Virus record (IMG/VR): IMGVR_UViG_3300021091_000011
Source: a virus
Lineage: Duplodnaviria > Caudoviricetes
Strand: one strand, 5' to 3'
DNA: 64,000 nt
Made by a program: the position numbers and the translations under genes. The notes under the pieces were generated by a model. It was given only the letters and a program-made list of their open reading frames with translations, did not search any database and was not told the origin of the DNA. Below are positions 7,731 through 51,814 of the stretch, piece by piece (the stretch's first letter is position 1; each line of letters opens with the position of its first letter).

Positions 7731-8084
7731 GTGTATTGGATCTACGTCATAGAATCGTTAGTGCCTCGTTACGCGAATAACGGACGTAGATTGCGTGGGT
7801 TTTTCTACGTCGGCATGACGACGCACCCCAACCGCAGATTACGCCAGCACAACGGCGAAATCTTGGGCGGGGGTCGTTATACTGCGAAGCATCGACCGTG
7901 GGTGCTCCGCACCGTGTACGGACCTTATTCTTCTAGGTCCGAAGCACTCAAAGCCGAGTACGCACTCAAGCATAGTAAGCGAGGCGAGGCCCGACTGAGT
8001 TGGACGCCTAATGATTCGGTTTGGTGCCGAACAGCGTATCAAATTGCGGAAGGGGAGGGATTCGAACCCTCGGTGAGGGATTAG
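7731..8084 (+). CDS. SLX1-like GIY-YIG endonuclease
   Basis: WIYVIES...FYVGMTTHPNRRLRQHNGEILGGGRYTAKHRPW...EALKAEYALK; GTG start at 7731. Confidence 0.85.
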   Translation: MYWIYVIESLVPRYANNGRRLRGFFYVGMTTHPNRRLRQHNGEILGGGRYTAKHRPWVLRTVYGPYSSRSEALKAEYALKHSKRGEARLSWTPNDSVWCRTAYQIAEGEGFEPSVRD

Positions 8085-8134
8085 CCCACACACGATTTCC
8101 AATCGTGCGCCTTAAACCACTCGGCCACCCTTCC
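8047..8134 (-). tRNA. tRNA-Ser(GGA)
   Basis: Full cloverleaf, anticodon arm CACGA-TTGGAAA-TCGTG, long variable arm, GGTTCGAATCC; no encoded CCA. Confidence 0.93.
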
Positions 8135-8169
8135 GTATCATGCACTCTGATTTCAGAGTGCGCTCAAAA

Positions 8170-9024
8170 TCAACGCTTTACGAGCGATAACAGGGTTCTG
8201 CGCTCATTAGAACCGACAGGCATCGTAGACGCCAGCCGAATCAGAGAACTTCTCTGCGAAGAGGTCACTCTAAAAGAAGCCTGCTTGTACGGCGCAGTCC
8301 AGTCAACTGAACCGCTGCTAAGTGCCTTCACCGCAGGCTCTACGTGGCCCTTATCAGGGTCGATCACAGGCATTTCTTTGCGGTCAGGAGCCCAACTCGG
8401 CACATTGCGTTTCATTCCCTTGACGTTGTTTGCCATTATGATGATTCCGGTTTCAACTGAACCGAAGTTTTTTTCGAGAATTGCCTTGACGTCATCCGCA
8501 GAGATCGGAAACTCACCCGGAACGCCGTTGTTGGCATACCCTTCAAGCATATCCGCGACGTTCTTGGGCGTGAACTTCGAGATTGAACCCTCGCCTTTCT
8601 TGCCGTTTCTCACGTTGAACTTACCTACGGTGAGGATGTTCAATACGCGAAGAAGGTCTTTACCCGGAAGAGCCGCCTTGTAGCCTTCAACCTTGGCCGA
8701 ATTGCCGCCTGCGATGATCGCAGCCGCCCAACGATGATGACCATCCATGATGAAGTTGTCAGCAGAGATCAGCGCGTTCAAATCGCCGCCGATCTTGCCC
8801 TTAGCGAGCATACCCAAAGCCATGCCGACAGCCTTCCCTAAGACCATCGTGGTCTGGGATGGCTTCAGCGCAGCAGCAACGGAGCTAACCTTGCTTACTG
8901 AGATTTTATCCGAACTGCCGTCGCCGGACTCGCACATCAAGTGAGCGATAGACGGGTCTACTCCTGAGAGCGTTCCGGCTTCCTCAAACTGCTTCTCGAA
9001 AACACCATCTGCCTTACGCCGCAT
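8170..9024 (-). CDS. ParB/sulfiredoxin-like nuclease-domain protein with C-terminal LIRLASTMP module
   Basis: LISADNFIMDGHHRWAA ParB/Srx signature; ends in KQASFRVTSSQRSSLIRLASTMPVGSNERRTLL. Confidence 0.7.
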   Translation of the reverse strand: MRRKADGVFEKQFEEAGTLSGVDPSIAHLMCESGDGSSDKISVSKVSSVAAALKPSQTTMVLGKAVGMALGMLAKGKIGGDLNALISADNFIMDGHHRWAAAIIAGGNSAKVEGYKAALPGKDLLRVLNILTVGKFNVRNGKKGEGSISKFTPKNVADMLEGYANNGVPGEFPISADDVKAILEKNFGSVETGIIIMANNVKGMKRNVPSWAPDRKEMPVIDPDKGHVEPAVKALSSGSVDWTAPYKQASFRVTSSQRSSLIRLASTMPVGSNERRTLLSLVKR

Positions 9025-9287
9025 AATCTACCTCTTCTAGTTAGAGCATCTCGTAACGGCTGATAGATAAATGTGATAACGGCGATTTCACACCAAAGAT
9101 TTCTTGATCTTACCTTCCAAAAACCCCTATGCCTTTTTTACAACCCTCACGGGCAAAAGGCTTACGCCGAAGGGGAAGACCGACGCCACCTGAAACTGCG
9201 TCGTGTGAACACGCAAGACCCGACAGACGCAGTTACTACCTGCCGATCAGGACGGAGGTTGGATTTCCGGGAGGAGGCAGTCGGGCC

Positions 9288-9446
9288 TCATTCTGAGGTT
9301 TCATCAATCGGCTCTTGCTCGTTCTTCTTGGAATCGGAAGAACCGCAGGAAGGGCAGACTCGCGCCTGCTTACCTGATTTTTTGATGATCGTGCGGTATT
9401 TAGTCCCACACGCAGAACAAGTGACTGACACTACGGCTTTACCCAT
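9288..9446 (-). CDS. Small zinc-ribbon protein
   Basis: MGKAVVSVTCSACG...VCPSCGS; start refined to ATG 9446. Confidence 0.65.
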   Translation of the reverse strand: MGKAVVSVTCSACGTKYRTIIKKSGKQARVCPSCGSSDSKKNEQEPIDETSE

Positions 9447-9473
9447 ATCGTAACATACCAAACAAAATGAAAA

Positions 9474-9537
9474 TAGTCCTTGTCGGACTTGAACCAGCAC
9501 TTCCTCGCGGGAATCTGCCTGTTTCGCCAAGAGGCCA
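9474..9537 (-). pseudogene. Degenerate tRNA-like remnant lacking an anticodon arm
   Basis: D-arm-like GGCGAAACAGGCAGA and T-loop GGTTCAAGTCC are present; acceptor stem is imperfect; no anticodon stem-loop. Confidence 0.35.
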
Positions 9538-9540
9538 TCG

Positions 9541-9612
9541 TGGGTCGTTTGGGATTCGAACCCAAAACCAGCGGATTAAAAGTCCGATGCGCTACCGTTG
9601 CGCCAACGACCC
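9541..9612 (-). tRNA. tRNA-Lys(TTT)
   Basis: GGGTCGT acceptor, TCGGA-CTTTTAA-TCCGC, GGTTCGAATCC. Confidence 0.9.
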
Positions 9613-9618
9613 TAAACA

Positions 9619-9680
9619 TTGGGGAACTACCTAGATAGGCGAAATCAAAATCCGCAGTCCTGCCGTTAGACGATTCCCCA
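9619..9680 (-). pseudogene. tRNA-Gln(TTG) with deleted T-loop
   Basis: TGGGGAA acceptor, D-arm and GCGGA-TTTTGAT-TTCGC are present, but CTAGGT joins directly to AGTTCCCCA (about 9 nt such as TCGAATCCT missing). Confidence 0.7.
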
Positions 9681-9686
9681 TTGTAG

Positions 9687-9759
9687 TAGCCGCAGAGGGA
9701 TTCGAACCCCCGACCGTCGCTATGTAAAAGCGATGCTCTACCAACTGCGCTATGCGGCT
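9687..9759 (-). tRNA. tRNA-Val(TAC)
   Basis: AGCCGCA/TGCGGCT acceptor, TCGCT-TTTACAT-AGCGA, GGTTCGAATCC. Confidence 0.92.
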
Positions 9760-9766
9760 ATGTTTG

Positions 9767-10076
9767 TACCCGAAGTCGGATTCGAACCGACACGCCCTTG
9801 CGAGCGGAGGATTTTCTTACCACTATGGTTTTCACCACCAAATCACGTTGTTTGTGGTCTGGACTTTGCCTTCACCCTCGCCATCTAGCCTCGGCTAGAT
9901 TCGTTAGGGCGGCTACCGTCAAGTCTCTACACCTTCCCCATTTATCATGGGGCTTGGCTCGGCGTTGGGTCGCTTTCGCAGGCCGTTCACCGAATTTGGC
10001 AGCATTCACTCAAGGGGCTTTCCCCCTTGGTGCTCAATCAATAAGTCCTCTGTGGCTACCCTTTCACCATTCGGGC
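9767..10076 (-). tRNA. tRNA-Leu(TAA), intron-containing
   Basis: 5' exon ends GAGGACTT and 3' exon starts AAAATCCTC, so splicing gives GAGGA-CTTAAAA-TCCTC; variable arm and T-arm present. Confidence 0.9.
9816..10042 (-). mobile_element. Group I self-splicing intron (IC3 type), 227 nt, no ORF
   Basis: Inserted after U34; P1 CTT/GAG; conserved P AAATTCGGTGAA, Q AACGCCGAGCC, R GTGTAGAGACTTGACGG, S AAGGCAAAGTCC; terminal G. Confidence 0.88.
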
Positions 10077-10085
10077 AATCTCAAG

Positions 10086-10158
10086 TGCCCCCAACGGGAT
10101 TTGAACCCGTGTAACCAACGTGAAAGGCTGGCGTCCTAGGCCACTAGACGATGGGGAC
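10086..10158 (-). tRNA. tRNA-Glu(TTC)
   Basis: CCAGC-CTTTCAC-GTTGG anticodon arm, GGTTCAAATCC. Confidence 0.92.
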
Positions 10159-10162
10159 TAAA

Positions 10163-10420
10163 TCAAAGCCAATAATCAAAGATCGATTCCGCGAAATAAT
10201 CGTCCGGCTTGACCGACTCGATCTGCAAGTCACCATTCGGACTTGCATAACGCACGATGCGCTTTACCAACCAACGCAGGTAATCAGGCCCCCCTGCAAT
10301 CACCCTCGTTTCGGAAAAGCCAACGAGTGCTTGCTCAAGCCCTTCGGTTGATTGCGGTAAAAAATCTTCTAGGTGCTTTACGCCTAGCGCGGTTTTATTT
10401 TCGTGATCGAGTAGCCACAT
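10163..10420 (-). CDS. Hypothetical protein within the tRNA array
   Basis: 85 aa from ATG 10420 (MWLLDHENK), filling the gap between two tRNAs. Confidence 0.55.
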   Translation of the reverse strand: MWLLDHENKTALGVKHLEDFLPQSTEGLEQALVGFSETRVIAGGPDYLRWLVKRIVRYASPNGDLQIESVKPDDYFAESIFDYWL

Positions 10421-10453
10421 GGTACGGCTACTCAAAAAATCAGATAAACGCGG

Positions 10454-10526
10454 CACCACCGGAGGGAATCGAACCCCCATCGACAGGCTTAGAAGGCCCG
10501 CGCCTTATCCGTTAGACCACGGTGGC
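10454..10526 (-). tRNA. tRNA-Arg(TCT)
   Basis: CGGGC-CTTCTAA-GCCTG, GGTTCGATTCC. Confidence 0.92.
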
Positions 10527-10532
10527 AGATAA

Positions 10533-10606
10533 TGGACCCCCTCGGGCTTGAACCGAGAACCAACCGGGTATGAGCCGGACGCGCTAACCACTTGCGCCAG
10601 AGGTCC
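10533..10606 (-). tRNA. tRNA-CAT (elongator Met or Ile2)
   Basis: TCCGG-CTCATAC-CCGGT; G1-C72 is paired, so not an initiator. Confidence 0.88.
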
Positions 10607-10611
10607 AAAAG

Positions 10612-10694
10612 TACGAGCAAAGGGACTTGAACCCCCACGCCCTTGCGGGCACCGGAACCTAAATCCAGCGTGTCTACCGTTCCACCATGCTCGC
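10612..10694 (-). tRNA. tRNA-Leu(TAG)
   Basis: CTGGA-TTTAGGT-TCCGG, variable arm GCCCGCAAGGGC, GGTTCAAGTCC. Confidence 0.92.
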
Positions 10695-10701
10695 TTATTT
10701 G

Positions 10702-10779
10702 TGGACGAGGGAGGACTCGAACCTCCGTGTGATATGCCTGATTTACAGTCAGGTGCAGTCGCCGCTGTGCCACTCGTCC
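10702..10779 (-). tRNA. tRNA-Tyr(GTA) with short variable region
   Basis: CCTGA-CTGTAAA-TCAGG, GGTTCGAGTCC. Confidence 0.88.
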
Positions 10780-10869
10780 AAGAGGCAGACTTCCTCTAAC
10801 TCGGTCTGCCAGCGAGTTCGGTTCCCATGGCAGGTAGAAAAGGAGAAAACCCCGCCACGGGCATCGAGA

Positions 10870-11073
10870 CTACTTGCGCTGAACGAAGTCGTACATTTCT
10901 TCGGCCAGCAAGCGAACCTGCGTGAAGGTCGGGAACGGAACTGCCAGCGGCGGGCGGTTTTCATACTGCGCCCGCGAGTTCTCGTTCTCCTGAGCCGCGT
11001 GATACTGCTCCACGAGCATATTCCGCGCCTCTTGGAGAATCCCCCAACGGATTTCGTAACCGGACTGAGACAT
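10870..11073 (-). CDS. Small hypothetical phage protein
   Basis: 67 aa from ATG 11073: MSQSGYEIRWGILQEA...FPTFTQVRLLAEEMYDFV. Confidence 0.7.
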   Translation of the reverse strand: MSQSGYEIRWGILQEARNMLVEQYHAAQENENSRAQYENRPPLAVPFPTFTQVRLLAEEMYDFVQRK

Positions 11074-11115
11074 AAACCAGACTCCCTGTGTGTGTGGTGA
11101 AAGCAAATACCGCTG

Positions 11116-11347
11116 GTGTGCAACCACCTGAGATCGCTCTAGCGTCCTATAACGATCTCCCCTGCGCGGCGACAAGGACCCCGATAACGGTGAGGTAACC
11201 GGAAGGAGTTTTCGCACCCCTACAAACGCACGGATTCTCGTCCCATGACTACGCTCAAGGACTTAACGAGCCCTGAGAATCGTCCGCATATAACGTCGCG
11301 GCCCCGCCGTTTTCTACCTGACGGTACAGGTTTGAGTGGTTGCACAC
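11116..11347 (-). ncRNA. Candidate ~230-nt structured RNA
   Basis: Perfect 12-bp closing helix GTGTGCAACCAC/GTGGTTGCACAC; inner helices GATTCTC/GAGAATC, AGATCG/CGATCT and CCTG/CAGG; G-U pairs favour the minus strand. Confidence 0.5.
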
Positions 11348-11353
11348 TCAAGG

Positions 11354-11426
11354 CTCCGACAGCAGGACTCGAACCTGCGACCAGGCGGTTAACAGCCGCC
11401 TGCTCTACCAACTGAGCTATGTCGGA
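11354..11426 (-). tRNA. tRNA-Asn(GTT)
   Basis: Canonical cloverleaf, GGCGG-CTGTTAA-CCGCC. Confidence 0.94.
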
Positions 11427-11429
11427 AAA

Positions 11430-12120
11430 AGCGAGGGCGTTCCACCCTCTAGAGCACGATGCCCTTACCACGGCGTCGATCCGCAGTAAGCCCCTGCGCG
11501 TACCTACGCAGAAGACTGAAAGGCTCAAGGCGGGAGCTTACGGTTATCGCTAACCTTAGACCCACTCCACTTTGCTTACCTGCGCCTAACAGGTGCTGCT
11601 GGACTTGTCACTCCAGCGGGAGGTCACTACTTTCCGTCCACCGCCATCCAACCAGAGACATTCCCTGATCGAACGCACGAACTCGGCCAGCAACGTACCC
11701 AATTCGTCCCGCCCTTTTTAACCTCGGCGTCAGGTTCCCCACCACGGTTGGACTGCTACCGTCGGTCTATTGACCGTCGCTCGGTGTCCACTTCGTCCGA
11801 ACGATCCCCGAGCACGGGGACTTACGATCACGGCTTAGAGGCCCGACGAGTTATCATCGGGCTTACCGCGACAGGCTTGTAAGCCGTAGTGAGGATAATA
11901 GGGTCTCCCGCGTCGAGACTTAGCCCGATGCGGTCGTATATTCTGCGACCTAGACCCCTAGTCGCTACATCCGTGATAATCTGAGCCAAATCCCGAACAC
12001 GGCTTCGGGGCTCAGTTCGGGTAGCAGGTCGGCACCAACCAGCCCCCGAAATCGTTTTCAATGAACGTGACGGCTTACTTTACCCAAGCCGTATTGAACG
12101 TCAACCCCTTAGTTGACGGA
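11430..12120 (-). ncRNA. Candidate ~690-nt large structured ncRNA between tRNA genes
   Basis: No credible ORF; at least 8 hairpins (e.g. TCCCCG/CGGGGA, GCCCGA/TCGGGC, TGAGCC/GGCTCA, ACGGCTT/AAGCCGT, CGTCAAC/GTTGACG). Confidence 0.5.
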
Positions 12121-12127
12121 AACTAAG

Positions 12128-12206
12128 CACGCGCAGGAGGAATCGAACCTCCATGCCCTTGCGGGCACCGGAAAATCCGGCGTGTCTGCCATTCCACCAT
12201 GCGCGG
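12128..12206 (-). pseudogene. tRNA-Leu-like gene with anticodon loop reduced to 3 nt
   Basis: Paralogue of 10612..10694; D-arm, variable arm and T-arm intact; anticodon arm is CCGGA-TTT-TCCGG. Confidence 0.75.
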
Positions 12207-12231: not shown

Positions 12232-12321
12232 CTTACACCATCCAAACGGTTCGGGGCGGCGAGGAAAACCGAAAAAGTGAACGACGATTTCCGGTTTTTT
12301 CGGGGCGGTCTAACCGTTTGG
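12232..12321. repeat. Palindromic element copy A (right arm truncated)
   Basis: Identical to copy B over CTTACACCATCCAAACGG...CCGTTTGG. Confidence 0.9.
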
Positions 12322-12588: not shown

Positions 12589-12603
12589 GGTTTATCCTTT
12601 CCC

Positions 12604-12701
12604 TTACACCATCCAAACGGTTCGGGGCGGCGAGGAAAACCGAAAAAGTGAACGACGATTTCCGGTTTTTTCGGGGCGGTCTAACCGTTTGGATGGTGTA
12701 A
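12604..12701. repeat. Palindromic element copy B (17-bp perfect terminal inverted repeats)
   Basis: TTACACCATCCAAACGG ... CCGTTTGGATGGTGTAA around a 64-bp core. Confidence 0.92.
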
Positions 12702-15928: not shown

Positions 15929-16804
15929 TCACGCGCGGGTGATCGTGAGGCGGGCGAGACCTTTGGGGTTGTACGCGCCGATGCCGAGGTTTTCGAACAC
16001 GGAGAAGCCGATGGTGCGGGCCTTCGGATCGTCAGCCGAGAGAACGGTGAGTTCGGTACGAACCGGAATGCGACCGAACATCTCGGGCTCGCAGCAGACG
16101 TACACCGTGCCGACCGGAACGAGACGGCTGACGATAATCTGCGCGCCCCAAAGCGTAGCCATAAGGCCCGTCTTGAGAAGATCACGCTGGCTCTCGATGT
16201 CGAGAATATCACGACCGAACTTCCGGAGGTCCGTGTAGTCTTGCGCGTTCACAAACACGCGGGCCACGCGGAGGTCGTGACGCTCGATCAGGCCATAGGC
16301 GTCAGCGAGAACCGCACCGCTGATCGGCGCGACAACCGGAATGTCAGGGTTGATGCCGCCAGCGACGGAATCAAAGCCCGACGTCGCAATCGCGTCGAGA
16401 ACGGAGAACACGCGCTCGTCCTCGGCAGCCTGAATCTGCGCGCGGGCGAGGTCCTGAGCGCGCTCAATGAGGTCGTAACGACGCTCCTTGATCTGCGTCA
16501 GGGGGATCTCGGGGTTCGACGCAATCTCGAACAGGGGGAAGATGACACGGCGCGGCTTGGTGATAGCGACGATGTTCTCGCCTTCCTCACCAACCACGAA
16601 CGCGGTCACGTCCGGGTCCTTGTCGTAGATCGGGAGCGCACCGTCCGGCAACTGCTCGACGAGGAAGGTCTTACGACCAACCGCCATGTAGTCGCGGCGC
16701 AGACGGAGGGGCTGCGTCATGGAGGCAGCGAGCTTCGCACGGCCCGAGGGCGTCGAGATATACTCGCTGATGAGCTTCTGCTTCACGCTGTTGTCGATAG
16801 ACAT
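15929..16804 (-). CDS. Major capsid protein (HK97 fold)
   Basis: GRAKLAASMTQPLRLRRDY...LPDGALPIYD; FEIASNP; GLMATLWGAQII; position after protease, scaffold and decoration genes. Confidence 0.85.
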   Translation of the reverse strand: MSIDNSVKQKLISEYISTPSGRAKLAASMTQPLRLRRDYMAVGRKTFLVEQLPDGALPIYDKDPDVTAFVVGEEGENIVAITKPRRVIFPLFEIASNPEIPLTQIKERRYDLIERAQDLARAQIQAAEDERVFSVLDAIATSGFDSVAGGINPDIPVVAPISGAVLADAYGLIERHDLRVARVFVNAQDYTDLRKFGRDILDIESQRDLLKTGLMATLWGAQIIVSRLVPVGTVYVCCEPEMFGRIPVRTELTVLSADDPKARTIGFSVFENLGIGAYNPKGLARLTITRA

Positions 16805-22324: not shown

Positions 22325-25300
22325 TTAGTAAGAAACCCTTATAGAATACCTACCGATATTTTCAATGTAGCGGCTTGCAACCCGATGCGCTTGGGCGCGA
22401 GCTTCACGCCTTATTTTCGTCCTTATGCTGATGTCCTTACTGAATGACTTTGCTTTATTCCACAAAGCGGCCATGATTTTGTGGTACCGCTCCATCGAGT
22501 CTTGAACCCTTTTGAGGTTTTTATTGTCGGTAAACCACTTCTTCTTAGAAGTGATGCTATTCAAGTCGTCGTGCAACTCGCTTCTGGCTTGGTCTAGTTC
22601 AGGGTTGAAACTTGAACCTTCCAACTCGCTGAACCTAAACTGCGCGGTCAATGAACCGAGAACCTGATCACGAATGAACTTGCGGGCTGCGGGTGCTGAG
22701 TAAGACTCGAAAACGGAAGCGGCAATGTCTTTCATAGGGTCTTTTTCAGGCAAAAACTCGGCTAGTTCTTCGTCAGTCAGGTTTGCGTAAGCGGCGGCGG
22801 CTTTCGATGTGAGGTTTTGCAGTTTTTCTGCGTTCGTCTTGCCAACGTCGCTTGAGGTATCGAGAAAGTCTTGCGCCAAGCCCATGCGATCCGCTGCACG
22901 GATGGCGTTCGCCACAACGGGGGATATACCCTCGACCTTCTCGCCAGGAGCAGTCTTGGTGATCTGGTAAATCTTGAGCGCATTGTACGCCGCAGAAGCC
23001 TTAGCGTGGGCGACGCTATTTTCAGGCAGCGAATTGATCTTAGCGTAAAGCCTGTCCGCATGGCTCTTGGCTTCTTCAGCGGGCATCTTACTTTTGACGA
23101 GTTCTTGGTATTTCGATCTAGCGAAACTATCGTCCTCGCGGGCTTGATCTTCGGGGCTGTTGATGCTTGCAGCCCTATCCTCTGGAATCGAGAAACGAGT
23201 CATCGGATCGTTATTCTTGTAGTTCGCCGCGAGCACGGCTGCGTGCTTTGCCGCTTCTTCAGGATTAGTAGACTTACGCTTTTTCGATGCGTCGCTCGAA
23301 AAGTAAGCCTTTGCTTCATCTACTTTTTTGGCGAAAACTTTTTCTTTAGCAGGGTCACTAAGGCTATCCACGGCTTCTTGCGAAGCCGTGACAACGCTAT
23401 CTTTCAATTTCTGACGGAATATCTCTTGAGAGAATGGGGGAAGTGATTTGAGAAACGAGTTGACGGAGCGGTACTCATCGGCATCTGTGAAATCTTCGAA
23501 CAATTTTTCGATTTGGCGTTCAATGGTTTTTGGCGTCTTGTTACCCAACTTTTGTTTTTCAAACAGCAACACGCTTAGAGCGTGGGTTGCCTTTTCGGGG
23601 TCGATGTTCTCGTCATCACTCATCTCTTCGAGTTGCTTTCGGGCAACCGAAAACTCTTCGTTGATTTGCTTTTGGTCGGCATCTTTCAATAATTCATTGA
23701 TAGAAGTGAACTTTTCCGACACATTCTTCATTAGATCCTCACCATCGTCGAAATAATCGACAATGGCGCGAAGCTCATAGCTGAGTGACTTCTTGAATTC
23801 GTCGAATGTCTTTTTGAACTTCGACTCTGGCGACTCCATAGGCTTAGGCTTGGATTCGGTGGCCGGAGCGGGTTCAGGGGACGGTGTAGATTCGGGCTCG
23901 GATTCGGGCTTGCCGATCAGGGGGCTAGGGTCTTTGGGTTCCGCAGCCCCATCCGTTTCGGCGCTAGGTGCGGACTCAGGAGCCGGAACGGACGTCGGCT
24001 CGGTAGTCGGCTTAGAGTCATCCGACTTAGGCTTTTTGGACTTCAACCACTTCTGATACAGGTCTTCGTAGACCTGATACTCTTGCTCTTCGCCCTTATT
24101 GGTCTTACTAGCGAGGGTCTGCAAAAGCACTTCACGTTTCGAGACAGGATTCTTAACCTTATTAGTGCCGTACTGTTTGAGGAACTTGACTCTGTTATCC
24201 TCTTCCTCGGACTTCTTGCCCTTTTGCCTAGCAATCCTGACGGCCAAATGCCTTACGACGACACTCTGGATAAGTGCGGCGTCTTTGTAGTTCTTAGACC
24301 GATCCTTCTTGTCCTGCTTCTCGTCGGAATCATCGCCACCGCGCGTGTCTCGATCCTCGACGTCTCTGCGGCGCAGGTCTTGGCGGGGCGGCTTGAACTT
24401 CGTGTCCTTTTGGATCAGCCGCTTATCCTCGCGCTCTTCCTTTTCGGACTCTTCCAACGTAGCGGTCTTGGTCGTCGCCAAAGCATACTCGACCAATCGC
24501 GCCCAAGCGGGATATCGACGTTGTACGTCACCGTCTATGAAATACGACGCGAAAGAATCCGCGAACGCCTCGCCCATGTTGTTTTGAGCGAAAGGCAACG
24601 GCTCGGCATCGCCCCAAACGTCAACGCCAAGTGGTTCTGCGGCTTTAGTCAAACTGAAGTCGCCCTCTATGACGTGGCCGATTTCATGGGCGAACACGAA
24701 GTCTTTGATGTCGGGGGACAAGTCCCAAAACTTCGGATACAGGTGGATTACGCCGGATTTGACGCTGGCCTCTGGATGGCTACTAGAGCCTGAAACGCCA
24801 AAGACTCGATTGACCTTGGCTTTCGAGTATCGGGCCAACTTGGGGTGCCGACGAAAGAAACCTTGAACCCAAGCCTTCGTCTCGTCATCACCGCCAACAA
24901 GAACAGTCGCCCCCGCTTTCTTATCCAAGCGGTCTGCAACCGTCCCGTCGTGCAGATATGACTCTTCGATCACGGGCGCGAGATACTGCGAACGTAAGGT
25001 CGAAGCCTCATGGCCCACGGCTTCAGCGGCCTGCTCAATGGCTTTCTTGAACTCGTCCTTGAGGATTTTGTCTTTCTCTTTTCGGGCACGGGGTAGTTCC
25101 GGTCCCTCAGACCTGATTTTTTTAAGTGCCGCACGGACTTCATCGTTTGCGTGAAGACCACGCAGGTCTTTCGCCGTGATCCCATACGGCTCAAGGTATT
25201 CGTTCACGTCGCTCGCATTGACGATGCAATCATCGCCGTCACAAAGAATGCGGTCCTCGGGCTTCTTGCCCTTCGTCGCATCTTTGAGTGCGGAGACGAG

Positions 25301-25735
25301 TTTGGCGTCGCTGACGGTTTTGTTGTGCTTGACGCCTGACTTGCCCGTGTAACTAATCTCAGCCTTATTGCCCTTGAACTTGACGTGACGGACTTCCCAC
25401 ACGGTCACGCCGTAGTGCCCATTGTCATCTGCCGAATCGACGTTGCCGACACGCTCGTAAGTATGGTCGATCAAACCGACCGCTAATGCGGTCAGCCGCT
25501 TCATCGGGTCTTTGTCGCCCAATGCCTTTTTGTAGGCATCACGCAAGTCCGGCAACTTGGGCAGGAAATTCTGAATGCGCTCGGCTTTTTCCTTATGCCG
25601 ATTCGCAACTTGGCGTGGGCCGTACTCGTAGATTGTAGTCTCGCCGCCGTCTTGCGACTTGACCTTCTTCTTCTTCTGGTACTTCGCGGCGACCCGCACA
25701 GGGGAGAGGGTCGAGTTAGCGTCGTGCGAGTGCAT
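22325..25735 (-). CDS. Multidomain protein: topoisomerase IB + zincin (HExxH) metallopeptidase + unknown domains
   Basis: TopIB pentad ERVGN, YTGKSG, KDLR, VGH, RSQY; FAHEIGH...EAFADSF. Confidence 0.8.
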   Translation of the reverse strand: MHSHDANSTLSPVRVAAKYQKKKKVKSQDGGETTIYEYGPRQVANRHKEKAERIQNFLPKLPDLRDAYKKALGDKDPMKRLTALAVGLIDHTYERVGNVDSADDNGHYGVTVWEVRHVKFKGNKAEISYTGKSGVKHNKTVSDAKLVSALKDATKGKKPEDRILCDGDDCIVNASDVNEYLEPYGITAKDLRGLHANDEVRAALKKIRSEGPELPRARKEKDKILKDEFKKAIEQAAEAVGHEASTLRSQYLAPVIEESYLHDGTVADRLDKKAGATVLVGGDDETKAWVQGFFRRHPKLARYSKAKVNRVFGVSGSSSHPEASVKSGVIHLYPKFWDLSPDIKDFVFAHEIGHVIEGDFSLTKAAEPLGVDVWGDAEPLPFAQNNMGEAFADSFASYFIDGDVQRRYPAWARLVEYALATTKTATLEESEKEEREDKRLIQKDTKFKPPRQDLRRRDVEDRDTRGGDDSDEKQDKKDRSKNYKDAALIQSVVVRHLAVRIARQKGKKSEEEDNRVKFLKQYGTNKVKNPVSKREVLLQTLASKTNKGEEQEYQVYEDLYQKWLKSKKPKSDDSKPTTEPTSVPAPESAPSAETDGAAEPKDPSPLIGKPESEPESTPSPEPAPATESKPKPMESPESKFKKTFDEFKKSLSYELRAIVDYFDDGEDLMKNVSEKFTSINELLKDADQKQINEEFSVARKQLEEMSDDENIDPEKATHALSVLLFEKQKLGNKTPKTIERQIEKLFEDFTDADEYRSVNSFLKSLPPFSQEIFRQKLKDSVVTASQEAVDSLSDPAKEKVFAKKVDEAKAYFSSDASKKRKSTNPEEAAKHAAVLAANYKNNDPMTRFSIPEDRAASINSPEDQAREDDSFARSKYQELVKSKMPAEEAKSHADRLYAKINSLPENSVAHAKASAAYNALKIYQITKTAPGEKVEGISPVVANAIRAADRMGLAQDFLDTSSDVGKTNAEKLQNLTSKAAAAYANLTDEELAEFLPEKDPMKDIAASVFESYSAPAARKFIRDQVLGSLTAQFRFSELEGSSFNPELDQARSELHDDLNSITSKKKWFTDNKNLKRVQDSMERYHKIMAALWNKAKSFSKDISIRTKIRREARAQAHRVASRYIENIGRYSIRVSY

Positions 25736-26656: not shown

Positions 26657-29600
26657 TCAAAAACGTCTCCGTGAGAACTCCAATGAGTTAGAAAACGCAG
26701 GGTGCGGACTGAGTTTGCGAGCGACGACTTGCATATCACGAAGCGACCAAGGCGCTTCGTAAACAGGATTCATAACGCCCTTCGGGATGAACAGCACGAA
26801 TTCCGACCCATCCGTAGATGCCGGATACTCCCGAACAGGAATCACGTCCCACGCTTCCTGAGCGTTAGACCAATGAAAGTGATAGGCTTTGCCGGGCTCT
26901 TTAGGCTTGGGTATGCTGGCAGGCTCTAAAGAGATTCGAGGCAGAACGCGATTTATCATGGGCGCGATCTGATTGAGTTCTGCGACACCACGCAAAACCA
27001 ACGTAGCCGGATGCGGCGTGCGAAAGATTTGAGGCGGTTCGATGTCCTCGGAGGCAAAGCGAAAGTGTCCCGCAGCTTCCCCACGGATGATTCTCTTGGC
27101 TTCAGCCTCGGCGCGTTGTAGGTCCGTGTGAATGCGAATCGGTAAATACTCCTGCGCGTCCGTGTCGAACAGAACGACGTGGTATTTCCCTTCGTGCTCG
27201 GTGATATGAACCTCGAAGCCGTCCTCGTTATTCTCTAGCACGAGAAGGGGCTTCTTACGGGGAGCGCGGTCATCCCACCATGCCGCCCCAACGAAACGAC
27301 TCGCCACCCGTCGGGCAGACGGCTTCTGACCCTCGTCGGCCTTGTCCATCTGATTTCTCACTTTCTCGGCCCACGCTTTGCCGGGGTCACCGCCCCAAAT
27401 CAGCCAAGCGACGTGGCCCTTATCGTTCCAGGGTGTGTCTTTGTTTTCGGGCGCGATGGACTTGTTCTTCTCGTGGCGTGAGAAAAACGCGACCATCTGG
27501 CGAATCACGTCGGGCGAAGTATTGTCCCGATTCTTCAGGTTCACCGCACGTTGAACGCCGGAACCGATGCCCTGCTTGCTCGCCTCGGCGGGCGTCAGAC
27601 CACCTTTGTTAGAGGGGCTGGCCTTCTGCCGATATTCAAGGCCCTTAGCGGCGGCGTCTGCCACGGACTTCGGCGGCTTGAAATCAATGTGCGAGTATTT
27701 ATCCGGAACCGCAGCCGTCTTGAGCAGTTTCCGATACAAGTCAGATTCGGTCAAATCAGGGTCCAAGACCAATAGACGCCGAATCGTATTCGTGACGTTC
27801 TTGATTTCCGCGCCGCTGATGCCCAACTCACGAATGAGCCTCGGCATATCAAACTTGCGACCAGGCTGGTCCAGCACTTCCAGCAAGGCCACGGCTTTAT
27901 CCGGCTCGGCTTCGGAGTACGCCCTGAACTGAGGCAACAGGTCTTGAGGCACGACAGACAAACGCTTGCCCATCGGCATCTGCAAGTCTAACAGGTCGAA
28001 CAGGAACTTCAGCTCCGAACGCCTGTTCGCCCAATTGTCTAACGCAGCCTTGAACGGCTTGTTCTCTTCGGCAATCTCACGCACTACGTCGAGCAGGCCC
28101 AACTTACCCATTTCGAGCAGGGCTTTTTTACCGACGCCAGGCTCAAAGAACGTCTCGACCAACATCGTGCTCAAATGAGCGGCAGGCATCTGCTTGAGTT
28201 TTTGCGCGTTGCGCTTGATGGAAGCCGCAACCTCGGCATCGATCCTGAACCCATACTTGAGCAAGAACTTGATCGCGCGAACCATCCGGCTAGGGTCGTC
28301 CGAAAAGACGATATCAGGGTCGTTCGGGCATCGCATCGTGCCCGATTGCAAATCCCTCAAACCGCAACCGGACAAGTCGATGATCTCGGCCTTATCAGGT
28401 CCATCGGCCAAGTCATGCAATCGCCAGAGCAACGTGTTGTGAACCACCACCCCATTCGCCACGAAAGCAGGCTCAACCCCCTCATTCATCGAGATGTCGA
28501 ACACATCCTGTTCCCCGGCATCCTCGACCGACGTGACTCCGACGTACTGATAACCCAAATCAAACAACCGCTGGAGATTGGCGTGCTCATCTGGGCTAAT
28601 GACCTTGAGGCTCGCCATAAAGCCATCAAAGTCCCCTCGGGCATGGGCATCGTGAAGAAGCCGTTGAATCTTGCGAACAGGCTCATAAACCCCAAACAAT
28701 GTCCGTGACGCGCCACCGTCCGTAACGTAAACGGACTGATTGGCATCCTGTTTACGACCTGCTACGAACCCCTTGATGTAATCCGCAGGGATGCCATAGC
28801 GGTTCCGGCTCTTGAACTTCCGACTCGTGTAGTCAAAAGTCTTGGTCACCATCCACGGATGGATCTTTGACCACAAAACTGCCGCATCCACAGCGTTAAC
28901 ATAAACGAATTCGCCCTCCACCTTGCCCAACACGCCATGAGCACCGAGTAGCACCTGAAGTTGCTGCCGGATGTGAGGAGATACGGAACGAAACACCATC
29001 CGGCCAGAGTCCGGTCGGATGGAGCCGTCACCCTCCAAGTAGGCGGCAAGGAACGCCGACTGACTTTGCTCGTCAGCCTGCAAGATGGACCACGGGACAA
29101 CCTTGTAGTGAGAAGCGGACCTGTCGTTTTTGCTCCCACCACAGTAAAGGCCCAAATCCTCCAACCAGCCCACCACAGCCTTGCTGTCAGCGTAGATATC
29201 GTAACCGTCCTTGTTGGCAACGAACTCCACCCCCCGCAGAATGCGAACGGACCCCTTTTCAACCACCTTGTTGCGAGAAGGTTGGAACCCGAAAACGGCT
29301 TGGAAGCACTCGACGTATCTGGAAATGAGGGCAGGATCGGAGTTGCTGAATGACACCCGCTTGTGGGTATTTGACCCCTCGGCTACCACACACCCGATCA
29401 CGAACGCCAACTCGGGCGTCATCACCGCAGGCTTGGTGACCTCCTTGAGAGCCCCCCGCTTCGGCTGCACAGGATCCGGCAATTCAAGGGCAAGAGGCGT
29501 CTGCCTCACCACTTGTCGCACGGGCACGCAGAGTAGATCTCCTTCTCCAAGTTGATCAGCCTGCACCCACTCATGGCGGCACCCCCGAAGAACTAGAACC

Positions 29601-30769
29601 GGATGATGGTGCGTGCAAGCGAAGGAATGGCCCCACTCGGTCGTCACCCGCAAGGTGGGGGCAAAACCGCTGTATTGCCACCCCACGGCGGTTGCAGGTC
29701 CATCCTGTCCCGCTACTTTCAGATTGATGTTCTGCTGGACCCCATCCTCTCGGGAAGCGATCTCGTCAATGCGGAGGATGCCCCTCTCAGTAGGGATGAG
29801 GGTGTCCCCCGCCATGCAGTTGAACGTGAACTCGCGTCGCACGACATCTTCTTGAATGGTCGCAGGCTCGACCATGTTCGGCTTGTAGCCTTTGCCGTCG
29901 TCACCGCCGTAACTCTCTTTGCGAGCGTTGGCGATTTCGATCACTTCGCCGGACAGGTCATAGCCGTTGAGAACCCACGGCCCTTTGATCGTCAGAATCG
30001 CCACGCCATAGTTGTTCGTGACAAGCGACGATTCGCAAGGCAAGGAATCGGCAATCTTGCGAGCGAACCAAGCCGAGTCTTTGCCACGCAGCGCGACCGA
30101 GTCGATCACCACGTCCACGTCTTTGATAGGTTGGCCGATGATGAAGTTTCTTACTGCGCCGCCCACGACGTAGACGTGCTTAGATACGCCTGCGTTTCGC
30201 GCAACAGCAGACAGAAACTTCATTACTTCGACTTGCTCGCTGGCCTGCTTCTTAAACTCAGGCATCGGCGGGACTTCCTCGCATTCCATCGCAGGAACGG
30301 TCACGAGGTTAGCCTCTACCTGATAGCCCAAGCCCTCTACGAGTTTGGTGTATCTCTTCAGGTACGGAGCGTTGTCGTCCCAAAAGACGACTTTGTCTAC
30401 TCCGGGAAACTTGCTCAGAAGTTTATTGATGACCTTGATCTTGAAAGCAGGCGTGTTGTTCGAATCCGAGAGGTAAACCTCATCGAACCGTAATCCGGCT
30501 GACTTTAACAACTCAGGCACGCGGTATCGAAAACTAGATTTGACCGGACGTCCCGTAATCATCACCGCATAGGTGTCCGGATTAGCGATAGAAGCCCGAG
30601 CCGCAGATACGGTCTTAGAAATCCACCACTCACCCGAAGGGTCAATCGGGACGCAAGGAGGATTCAGCGACTCGCTGGAAATCCACCAACGGTTGTCCCA
30701 ACCCTCGGGCGTTTCGGGGGAGCGAAATAGCGTCCCGTCGAAATCGTAAATGTGGAGTTCAAGGCCCAT
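26657..30769 (-). CDS. cca: Polyprotein: HAD (Swiss-Army-knife RNA-repair-like) phosphatase + class II tRNA nucleotidyltransferase (CCA/poly(A) polymerase) with intein + unknown domains
   Basis: LHIYDFDGTLFRSP; YVVGGAVRN...KDVDVV; EDVVRREFTFN; FSDDPSRMVRAIKF. Confidence 0.8.
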   Translation of the reverse strand: MGLELHIYDFDGTLFRSPETPEGWDNRWWISSESLNPPCVPIDPSGEWWISKTVSAARASIANPDTYAVMITGRPVKSSFRYRVPELLKSAGLRFDEVYLSDSNNTPAFKIKVINKLLSKFPGVDKVVFWDDNAPYLKRYTKLVEGLGYQVEANLVTVPAMECEEVPPMPEFKKQASEQVEVMKFLSAVARNAGVSKHVYVVGGAVRNFIIGQPIKDVDVVIDSVALRGKDSAWFARKIADSLPCESSLVTNNYGVAILTIKGPWVLNGYDLSGEVIEIANARKESYGGDDGKGYKPNMVEPATIQEDVVRREFTFNCMAGDTLIPTERGILRIDEIASREDGVQQNINLKVAGQDGPATAVGWQYSGFAPTLRVTTEWGHSFACTHHHPVLVLRGCRHEWVQADQLGEGDLLCVPVRQVVRQTPLALELPDPVQPKRGALKEVTKPAVMTPELAFVIGCVVAEGSNTHKRVSFSNSDPALISRYVECFQAVFGFQPSRNKVVEKGSVRILRGVEFVANKDGYDIYADSKAVVGWLEDLGLYCGGSKNDRSASHYKVVPWSILQADEQSQSAFLAAYLEGDGSIRPDSGRMVFRSVSPHIRQQLQVLLGAHGVLGKVEGEFVYVNAVDAAVLWSKIHPWMVTKTFDYTSRKFKSRNRYGIPADYIKGFVAGRKQDANQSVYVTDGGASRTLFGVYEPVRKIQRLLHDAHARGDFDGFMASLKVISPDEHANLQRLFDLGYQYVGVTSVEDAGEQDVFDISMNEGVEPAFVANGVVVHNTLLWRLHDLADGPDKAEIIDLSGCGLRDLQSGTMRCPNDPDIVFSDDPSRMVRAIKFLLKYGFRIDAEVAASIKRNAQKLKQMPAAHLSTMLVETFFEPGVGKKALLEMGKLGLLDVVREIAEENKPFKAALDNWANRRSELKFLFDLLDLQMPMGKRLSVVPQDLLPQFRAYSEAEPDKAVALLEVLDQPGRKFDMPRLIRELGISGAEIKNVTNTIRRLLVLDPDLTESDLYRKLLKTAAVPDKYSHIDFKPPKSVADAAAKGLEYRQKASPSNKGGLTPAEASKQGIGSGVQRAVNLKNRDNTSPDVIRQMVAFFSRHEKNKSIAPENKDTPWNDKGHVAWLIWGGDPGKAWAEKVRNQMDKADEGQKPSARRVASRFVGAAWWDDRAPRKKPLLVLENNEDGFEVHITEHEGKYHVVLFDTDAQEYLPIRIHTDLQRAEAEAKRIIRGEAAGHFRFASEDIEPPQIFRTPHPATLVLRGVAELNQIAPMINRVLPRISLEPASIPKPKEPGKAYHFHWSNAQEAWDVIPVREYPASTDGSEFVLFIPKGVMNPVYEAPWSLRDMQVVARKLSPHPAFSNSLEFSRRRF
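28436..29818 (-). mobile_element. Intein with LAGLIDADG homing endonuclease (461 aa)
   Basis: Starts CMAGDTLI, block B ACTHHHPV, endonuclease motifs VIGCVVAEGS and FLAAYLEGDGS, ends FVANGVVVHN followed by Thr. Confidence 0.92.
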
Positions 30770-51712: not shown

Positions 51713-51814
51713 GCTTACACCATCCAAACGGTTAGCACGCCCTGAAAAAACCGGAAATCGACATTCACTTTTTCGGTTTTTTGCACGCCACGAAACCGTT
51801 TGGATGGTGTAAGC
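51713..51814. repeat. Palindromic element copy C (19-bp perfect inverted arms; inverted relative to A and B)
   Basis: GCTTACACCATCCAAACGG...CCGTTTGGATGGTGTAAGC; core AAAAAACCGGAAATCG-nnn-TTCACTTTTTCGGTTTT shared with the reverse complement of B. Confidence 0.92.

What the first reader, a model, noticed from the sequence alone, without database searches (positions are those of the whole stretch)
12128..12206. tRNA-Leu copy with a clean 4-nt deletion leaving a 3-nt anticodon loop
Seen: D-arm, variable arm (GCCCGCAAGGGC) and T-arm match tRNA-Leu(TAG), the stems show substitutions that keep pairing, and the anticodon arm is CCGGA-TTT-TCCGG. It is the first RNA downstream of palindromic element A. 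Known: LeuRS largely ignores the anticodon. Inference: a non-decoding tRNA mimic (decoy, aminoacyl donor, or processing signal for the adjacent large RNA) rather than simple decay.
Basis: partly seen in the sequence, partly recalled or inferred. Interest (0 to 1): 0.62.

Follow-up and report, generated by a model that had tools for sequence, protein, structure and literature searches.

The report
Loop-deleted leucine tRNA copy in phage
A group of large freshwater phages keeps a second copy of its leucine tRNA gene that has lost the anticodon and the marks needed for loading leucine; its four hairpins still look weakly conserved, so it is either a dispensable structured RNA leader or a slowly decaying relic, not a working tRNA.

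Summary
The element is real: 79 nt on the minus strand, a tRNA-Leu(UAG) duplicate lacking 4 loop bases. Independent assemblies bridge it without gaps, so it is not an assembly error. It recurs in 29 contigs of close relatives (7 alleles with the window's), never with a 7-nt loop; the loop is a U-run of 3, 4 or 5 nt. All 17 D, anticodon, variable and T stem pairs stay intact, with two compensatory T-stem changes. However, every complete allele has G73 instead of A73 and a frayed acceptor end, and the five other complete alleles lack G19, so leucine charging is very unlikely. Near-identical phages lack it. The neighbouring large RNA has a sigma70-like promoter motif downstream of it, kept in carriers and non-carriers, so it is not needed to make that RNA. 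Best reading (0.5): an accessory, non-decoding, uncharged tRNA-shaped leader behind the palindromic cassette, perhaps a t-element-like cutting signal. Close rival (0.38): a pseudogene patched by gene conversion. Expression is untested. The scan noted this stretch in an overlapping window, and other tRNA look-alikes in other phages, but not this element on other DNA.

The parts
12128..12206 (-). tRNA-Leu(UAG)-derived element, 79 nt; C1.U72 mismatch, G73, no CCA
12168..12180 (-). anticodon arm: invariant 5-bp stem, U-run loop of 3 nt here (4 nt in L097/L109 types, 5 nt in L140)
12155..12166 (-). variable arm, 4 bp with GCAA loop, invariant in 7 alleles
12136..12152 (-). T arm; three stem variants, all Watson-Crick paired; the window's variant matches the phage's own tRNA-Tyr T arm at 16 of 17 nt
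12233..12321 (.). palindromic cassette copy directly upstream (outer arm truncated); in most relatives it is fused to the element's 5' end; presumed promoter, untested
12603..12701 (.). second, complete palindromic cassette copy; its arms face the 85-aa gene and the SWIM gene
12077..12104 (-). sigma70-like promoter motif (TTGACG, 16 nt, TAAAGT) downstream of the element, in front of the large RNA; hexamers kept in 26 carrier and 7 non-carrier contigs of relatives (-35 reads TAGACG in five)
11430..12065 (-). large structured non-coding region heading the tRNA cluster (a separate finding); no Rfam match
10612..10694 (-). intact tRNA-Leu(UAG), the parent gene
9474..9536 (-). internal control: tRNA-Leu(CAA) remnant with the anticodon arm deleted; all 4 substitutions break pairs

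Best explanation
A duplicate of the phage's tRNA-Leu(UAG) landed behind the palindromic cassette in the ancestor of one phage clade and lost four loop bases (shown by comparison). It can neither decode nor, by known identity rules, be leucylated (follows from established rules). It has been kept as an accessory folded RNA: weak selection holds the D, anticodon, variable and T hairpins but not the loop length, the acceptor end or G19 (inferred from 7 alleles). Most likely it is the first thing transcribed from the cassette arm and acts in cis as a structured leader or t-element-like cutting signal, where tRNA-processing nucleases that read the T arm and acceptor helix separate cassette-driven read-through RNA from the large RNA and tRNA cluster (inferred; transcription, the promoter role of the cassette and cleavage are all untested). 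It is dispensable and is exchanged for small genes in sister phages (shown).
For: 29 contigs of relatives, 7 alleles with the window's, none with a 7-nt loop. 17 of 17 D/anticodon/variable/T pairs are paired in every allele that covers them, with two double changes in the T stem. Point-mutation simulation: P about 0.01 for no break in these stems and about 0.001 for two compensatory doubles. Window versus relatives: 7-9 substitutions in 75 nt against 19% at four-fold sites (Fisher p 0.04) and 35% in the nearest gene (p 3e-4); outside the T arm only 2 in 50 nt (p 0.002 at 19%, 0.03 at 13%), while both flanks differ more. Internal control: the Leu(CAA) remnant of the same genome broke a pair with each of its 4 substitutions. 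It occupies the slot behind the cassette arm where other copies have a ribosome-binding site and a gene. T54-T55-C56 and A58 are kept in all complete alleles.
Against: It evolves 4-6 times faster than the true tRNAs (9/75 versus 13/615, p 2e-4) and not clearly slower than capsid-gene four-fold sites (p 0.23). G19 is A in five of six complete alleles, 2:71 is unpaired in five of six, and the L122 allele breaks 6:67 and no longer favours the cloverleaf. The window allele's predicted ensemble favours another fold in which D and T strands pair. Both T-stem double changes have possible donors among the phage's own tRNAs; if counted as gene conversion, neutrality is not rejected (P 0.12). It is absent from phages only 4-9% distant at four-fold sites. 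The large RNA has a promoter motif of its own. The alleles are related and recombine, so the tests are not independent.
Confidence: 0.5

Rival explanations
1. A functionless pseudogene. It lies upstream of the operon's promoter, is barely transcribed, drifts slowly, and keeps a tRNA-like look because recombination with the many tRNA genes next to it patches its arms.
For: Loss of A73, G19 and the acceptor end, slipping U-run, absence in sister phages. The cluster is full of remnants and chimeras: Gln without T loop, Leu(CAA) in remnants of several lengths, 3' pieces of Tyr and Leu(UAG), swapped Lys, Glu and Arg genes. The window's T arm matches tRNA-Tyr at 16 of 17 nt. With the T-arm changes set aside, P 0.12 for intact stems.
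Against: Kept full length across a clade with four-fold distances up to 0.27, while the other remnants are lineage-specific and trimmed or mismatched. The core is more conserved than both flanks. Conversion from the parent gene never restored the loop in 29 contigs.
Confidence: 0.38
2. A trans-acting decoy: an abundant uncharged tRNA-shaped RNA without a cleavable anticodon that binds host tRNA-targeting nucleases or sensors.
For: Phage tRNAs are known to counter tRNA-targeting defences (PMC10264068, PMC11555353, abstracts). Patchy presence fits an accessory anti-defence role. The anticodon stem is invariant.
Against: The elbow pair G19-C56 is lost in most alleles and the loop length is free. 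No expression data; no tested example of this kind was found.
Confidence: 0.07
3. An aminoacyl donor: charged with leucine (or serine) for a non-ribosomal use.
For: LeuRS does not need the anticodon arm (PMC2377443). G73 plus a long variable arm is serine-like (PMC9976931). The genome encodes a CCA-adding-like protein.
Against: A73, G18-U55 and G19-C56 are critical for LeuRS and G73 is an antideterminant. Bacterial serine determinants C72, G2-C71 and C11-G24 are absent, and C2-G71 blocks SerRS. Pairs 1:72 or 2:71 are broken in every complete allele.
Confidence: 0.02
4. A DNA-level element: a recombination anchor or extra protein-binding site at the junction where gene modules are swapped behind the cassette. 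The shortened anticodon arm resembles the cassette's inner repeat.
For: The slot behind the cassette holds different genes in different relatives, and a 6-nt microhomology joins cassette and element.
Against: Only half of the inner repeat is matched, the T-run length varies, and the double changes keep pairing rather than sequence.
Confidence: 0.03

Closest known systems
Bacterial type II tRNA-Leu(UAG) (Rfam RF00005); the phage's own gene at 10612-10694
   Same: D arm, anticodon stem and variable arm; from nt 8 to the variable arm the window allele equals the Leu(UAG) allele of relatives L122-L131 except for the 4 missing bases
   Different: 3-5-nt U loop, G73, frayed acceptor end, G19 lost in most alleles, faster evolution, outside the operon's promoter motif
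t-elements (tRNA-like processing signals of plant mitochondria; Forner et al. 2007, PMC1920247)
   Same: tRNA-derived, non-canonical cloverleaf with a conserved T arm, placed in front of another RNA
   Different: No mapped RNA end; its 3' end is 62 nt before the conserved start motif of the large RNA region, with a promoter motif in between; bacterial enzymes; dispensable
Partial, non-canonical tRNA genes of prokaryotes (van der Gulik et al. 2023, PMC9897764)
   Same: Duplicate of a resident tRNA gene, miscalled by tRNA finders, beside a mobile module junction
   Different: Nearly full length, shared by a whole clade, stems intact; no integrase or CRISPR link was tested
Phage tRNAs that evade anticodon nucleases (van den Berg et al. 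2023, PMC10264068, abstract)
   Same: Phage tRNA gene with an altered anticodon loop
   Different: Those remain translating tRNAs with point changes; this one cannot translate

Membership tests
functional tRNA-Leu | 7-nt anticodon loop | tested here: not met
   3, 4 or 5 nt in all alleles
functional tRNA-Leu | discriminator A73 | tested here: not met
   G73 in all complete alleles; rule
functional tRNA-Leu | 7-bp acceptor stem | tested here: not met
   1:72 broken in the window, 2:71 in five of six alleles, 6:67 in one
functional tRNA-Leu | G18-U55 and G19-C56 | tested here: inconclusive
   G18/U55 kept in all; G19 kept in window and L140, A in the five other alleles
functional tRNA-Leu | long variable arm and canonical T arm | tested here: met
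t-element | tRNA-like fold with conserved T-arm motif | tested here: met
   the window allele's ensemble prefers another fold without tertiary contacts
t-element | an end that coincides with a mature end of the neighbouring RNA | tested here: inconclusive
   62 nt and a promoter motif separate it from the large RNA's conserved start motif; no RNA ends mapped
t-element | cleavage by RNase P or RNase Z | not testable with these tools
   needs in vitro or in vivo assay
tRNA pseudogene | neutral rate and pair-breaking changes | tested here: inconclusive
   rate between tRNA and neutral; neutrality rejected under point mutation (P 0.01) but not if T-arm changes are conversions (P 0.12)
tmRNA, Y RNA (YrlA) or other Rfam tRNA mimics | match to the family model | tested here: not met
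   no such match at gathering score in the window; RF00005 is the only Gene/tRNA-clan match reported over the element

The most novel reading that the evidence does not exclude
A recently born non-coding RNA caught in the middle of exaptation: a tRNA duplicate that shed decoding and charging identity, moved under a phage-specific promoter and now works in trans as an uncleavable tRNA mimic against host tRNA-targeting defence, swapped in and out like an accessory gene.
Probability: 0.08. Interest if true: 0.65.

Novelty: new member of a known kind. Interest (0 to 1): 0.3.

Why it matters
If it is functional, it is a young, datable case of a tRNA gene turning into a non-decoding RNA, with parent, carriers and non-carriers all available for comparison. 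If not, it shows how gene conversion in phage tRNA clusters can fake conservation, and that tRNA finders give false anticodon calls here. Either way it is narrow in range (one phage clade), dispensable and without expression data, so the consequence is modest.

Tried and rejected
No whole genome was held. Cultured phages gave only generic tRNA hits. First DNA patterns were too strict and found nothing; the second metagenome scan and both genome scans also found nothing, although a JGI contig holds the element (L088), so these blanks are weak. L081, L082, L091, L092 and L094 were chance pattern matches. No intact progenitor with the element's acceptor stem or the window's T arm was found. Ten more distant phage records showed no match; most are fragments and no positive control was included. 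No RNA holder listed: no evidence on expression either way. Assembly error rejected. Terminator role rejected: no U-run follows the T hairpin and the scan calls none there. The promoter scan alone is near chance (4 found, 2.1 expected); its weight comes from conservation. Literature searches found no description of this element.

Full report
OBSERVATION. The window is part of a large uncultured phage (capsid gene 15929-16804, hundreds of IMG/VR relatives; best sequencing runs are lake metagenomes). A tRNA cluster lies on the minus strand at 8046-11426. At 12128-12206 (minus) is a 79-nt tRNA-like sequence (ARAGORN 'tRNA-???'; RF00005 39.6 bits). Aligned to the tRNA-Leu(UAG) at 10612-10694 it lacks exactly four loop bases, leaving a 5-bp stem with a 3-U loop. 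Contigs from two other runs bridge the element without gaps, so it is not an assembly error.

RELATIVES. I collected loci through the capsid protein, the adjacent SWIM-finger protein and its cluster members. The element occurs in 29 contigs other than the window's own (after removing duplicates), many from the same sampling campaigns, giving 7 alleles with the window's. None has a 7-nt loop. The loop is a U-run of 3 nt (window, L004, L100, L122), 4 nt (L097, L109) or 5 nt (L140, 97.5% identical to the window). On a SWIM+HNH tree the carriers span one clade. The sister group (L005, L095, L008, L009, L114) lacks the element, and so do L124, L130, L132, L134, L135, L141 and L142 inside the clade, where a 107-115-aa gene with its own promoter-like motif sits in that slot. 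Non-carriers L124, L130 and L134 are only 4-9% from the nearer carriers at four-fold sites. Recombination makes the number of losses uncertain. From nt 8 to the variable arm the window allele equals the Leu(UAG) gene of relatives L122-L131 apart from the deletion, so it is a duplicate of the clade's own tRNA-Leu(UAG).

IS IT UNDER SELECTION? For: all 17 pairs of the D, anticodon, variable and T stems are intact in every allele that covers them, and two T-stem pairs change on both sides. Simulating the 13 inferred substitutions at random gives P about 0.01 for no break in those stems and 0.001 for two compensatory doubles. Window versus relatives differ at 7-9 of 75 nt, below four-fold sites (19% overall, p 0.04; 35% in SWIM, p 3e-4), and at only 2 of 50 nt outside the T arm. 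A remnant of tRNA-Leu(CAA) in the same genome (9474-9536) broke a pair with each of its four substitutions. Against: the rate is 4-6 times that of the true tRNAs (p 2e-4) and not clearly below capsid four-fold sites (p 0.23). G19 is A in five of six complete alleles, 2:71 is unpaired in five, and one allele breaks 6:67 and loses the predicted cloverleaf. The window's T arm matches the phage's tRNA-Tyr T arm at 16 of 17 nt, and the L100 variant is one change from a Leu(UAG) T arm of relatives. tRNA swaps, chimeras and remnants are common in this cluster. If both T-arm events are gene conversions, neutrality is not rejected (P 0.12). The result is relaxed, partial constraint, not proof of function.

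WHAT IT CANNOT DO. It cannot decode: the anticodon loop of tRNAs has 7 nt (PMC7609411). LeuRS does ignore the anticodon arm, but it needs A73, G18-U55 and G19-C56 (PMC2377443), and G73 is a LeuRS antideterminant (PMC9976931). Bacterial serine determinants in the acceptor and D stems are missing too. With a frayed acceptor end in every complete allele, an aminoacyl-donor role is very unlikely.

POSITION. The element follows the outward arm of a palindromic cassette (12233-12321; further copies at 12603-12701 and 51715-51813). Other arms are followed at once by a ribosome-binding site and a gene, which suggests, but does not show, that the arm is a promoter. In most relatives cassette and element are fused through a 6-nt microhomology, which removes the spacer and replaces the first bases. 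Downstream, before the large RNA, lies TTGACG-16-TAAAGT (12104-12077), kept in 26 carrier and 7 non-carrier contigs of relatives. So the large RNA most likely has its own start and does not depend on the element.

MECHANISM. Shown: origin by duplication, loop loss, loss of charging identity, patchy presence, intact hairpins. Inferred: transcription from the cassette arm and a cis role as a structured leader or cutting signal on read-through RNA, in the manner of t-elements (PMC1920247); I give this 0.5. I took the t-element idea from an earlier scan note on another phage (e1-5401167) and did not test cleavage. A pseudogene patched by conversion gets 0.38, decoy 0.07, DNA-level role 0.03, aminoacyl donor 0.02. 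No RNA run was listed, so expression is open.

NOVELTY. I found no description of this element and no Rfam family beyond the generic tRNA model. tRNA-derived relics and non-decoding tRNA-like elements are known kinds, and the scan has noted better conserved look-alikes in other phages (unchecked). This one is young, narrow and dispensable. Verdict: real, new member of a known kind, interest 0.3.

Noticed in passing
window 9620-9680 (-): tRNA-Gln(UUG) with 9 nt of the T arm deleted; intact in all relatives examined, so a recent lineage-specific break; contigs of runs X2 and X3 match the window here without gaps.
   Followed up: yes
window 9474-9536 (-): tRNA-Leu(CAA) remnant lacking the anticodon arm; many relatives keep only its last 17 nt, which form a terminator-like hairpin before a U-run at the end of the cluster.
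   Followed up: partly
window 9766-10076 (-): tRNA-Leu(UAA) with a 227-nt group I intron; intron-less in L009, L100, L122 and 664 nt long in L097.
   Followed up: partly
L101:4725-5270 (-): A tRNA-Asn 5' part is interrupted at the anticodon stem by a PD-(D/E)XK nuclease gene (PF11645), followed by a complete, different tRNA-Asn: looks like a homing insertion.
   Followed up: no
L109, L110, L138 (tRNA cluster): Leu(UAG) is replaced by a 75-76-nt tRNA with UAG anticodon and no long variable arm; L110 keeps the 3' half of the old gene behind it.
   Followed up: no
L101-L103 tRNA-Lys: Chimeric tRNA-Lys(UUU): 5' part of a foreign gene with the resident 3' end, giving a mismatched acceptor stem.
   Followed up: no
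window 12233-12321, 12603-12701, 51715-51813: Palindromic cassette whose arms face genes in both directions; the slot behind it holds different modules in relatives (85-aa, 93-aa, 115-aa genes, RadC, or the tRNA-like element). The arm facing the element often has a G for an otherwise kept A.
   Followed up: partly
window 26657-30769 (-): 1370-aa protein with an RNA-repair HAD domain, a poly(A) polymerase/CCA-adding head domain and a LAGLIDADG intein; most tRNA genes of the cluster lack an encoded CCA.
   Followed up: no
window 22325-25735 (-): 1136-aa protein with a eukaryote-type topoisomerase IB core at its N-terminus.
   Followed up: no
window 11095-11350 (-): Second structured non-coding region after tRNA-Asn, ending in a tRNA-like ACCA; more diverged among relatives than the large RNA; no Rfam match.
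   Followed up: no
L131 large RNA region: The large RNA carries an internal deletion of roughly 150 nt in this contig; could be decay or misassembly.
   Followed up: no
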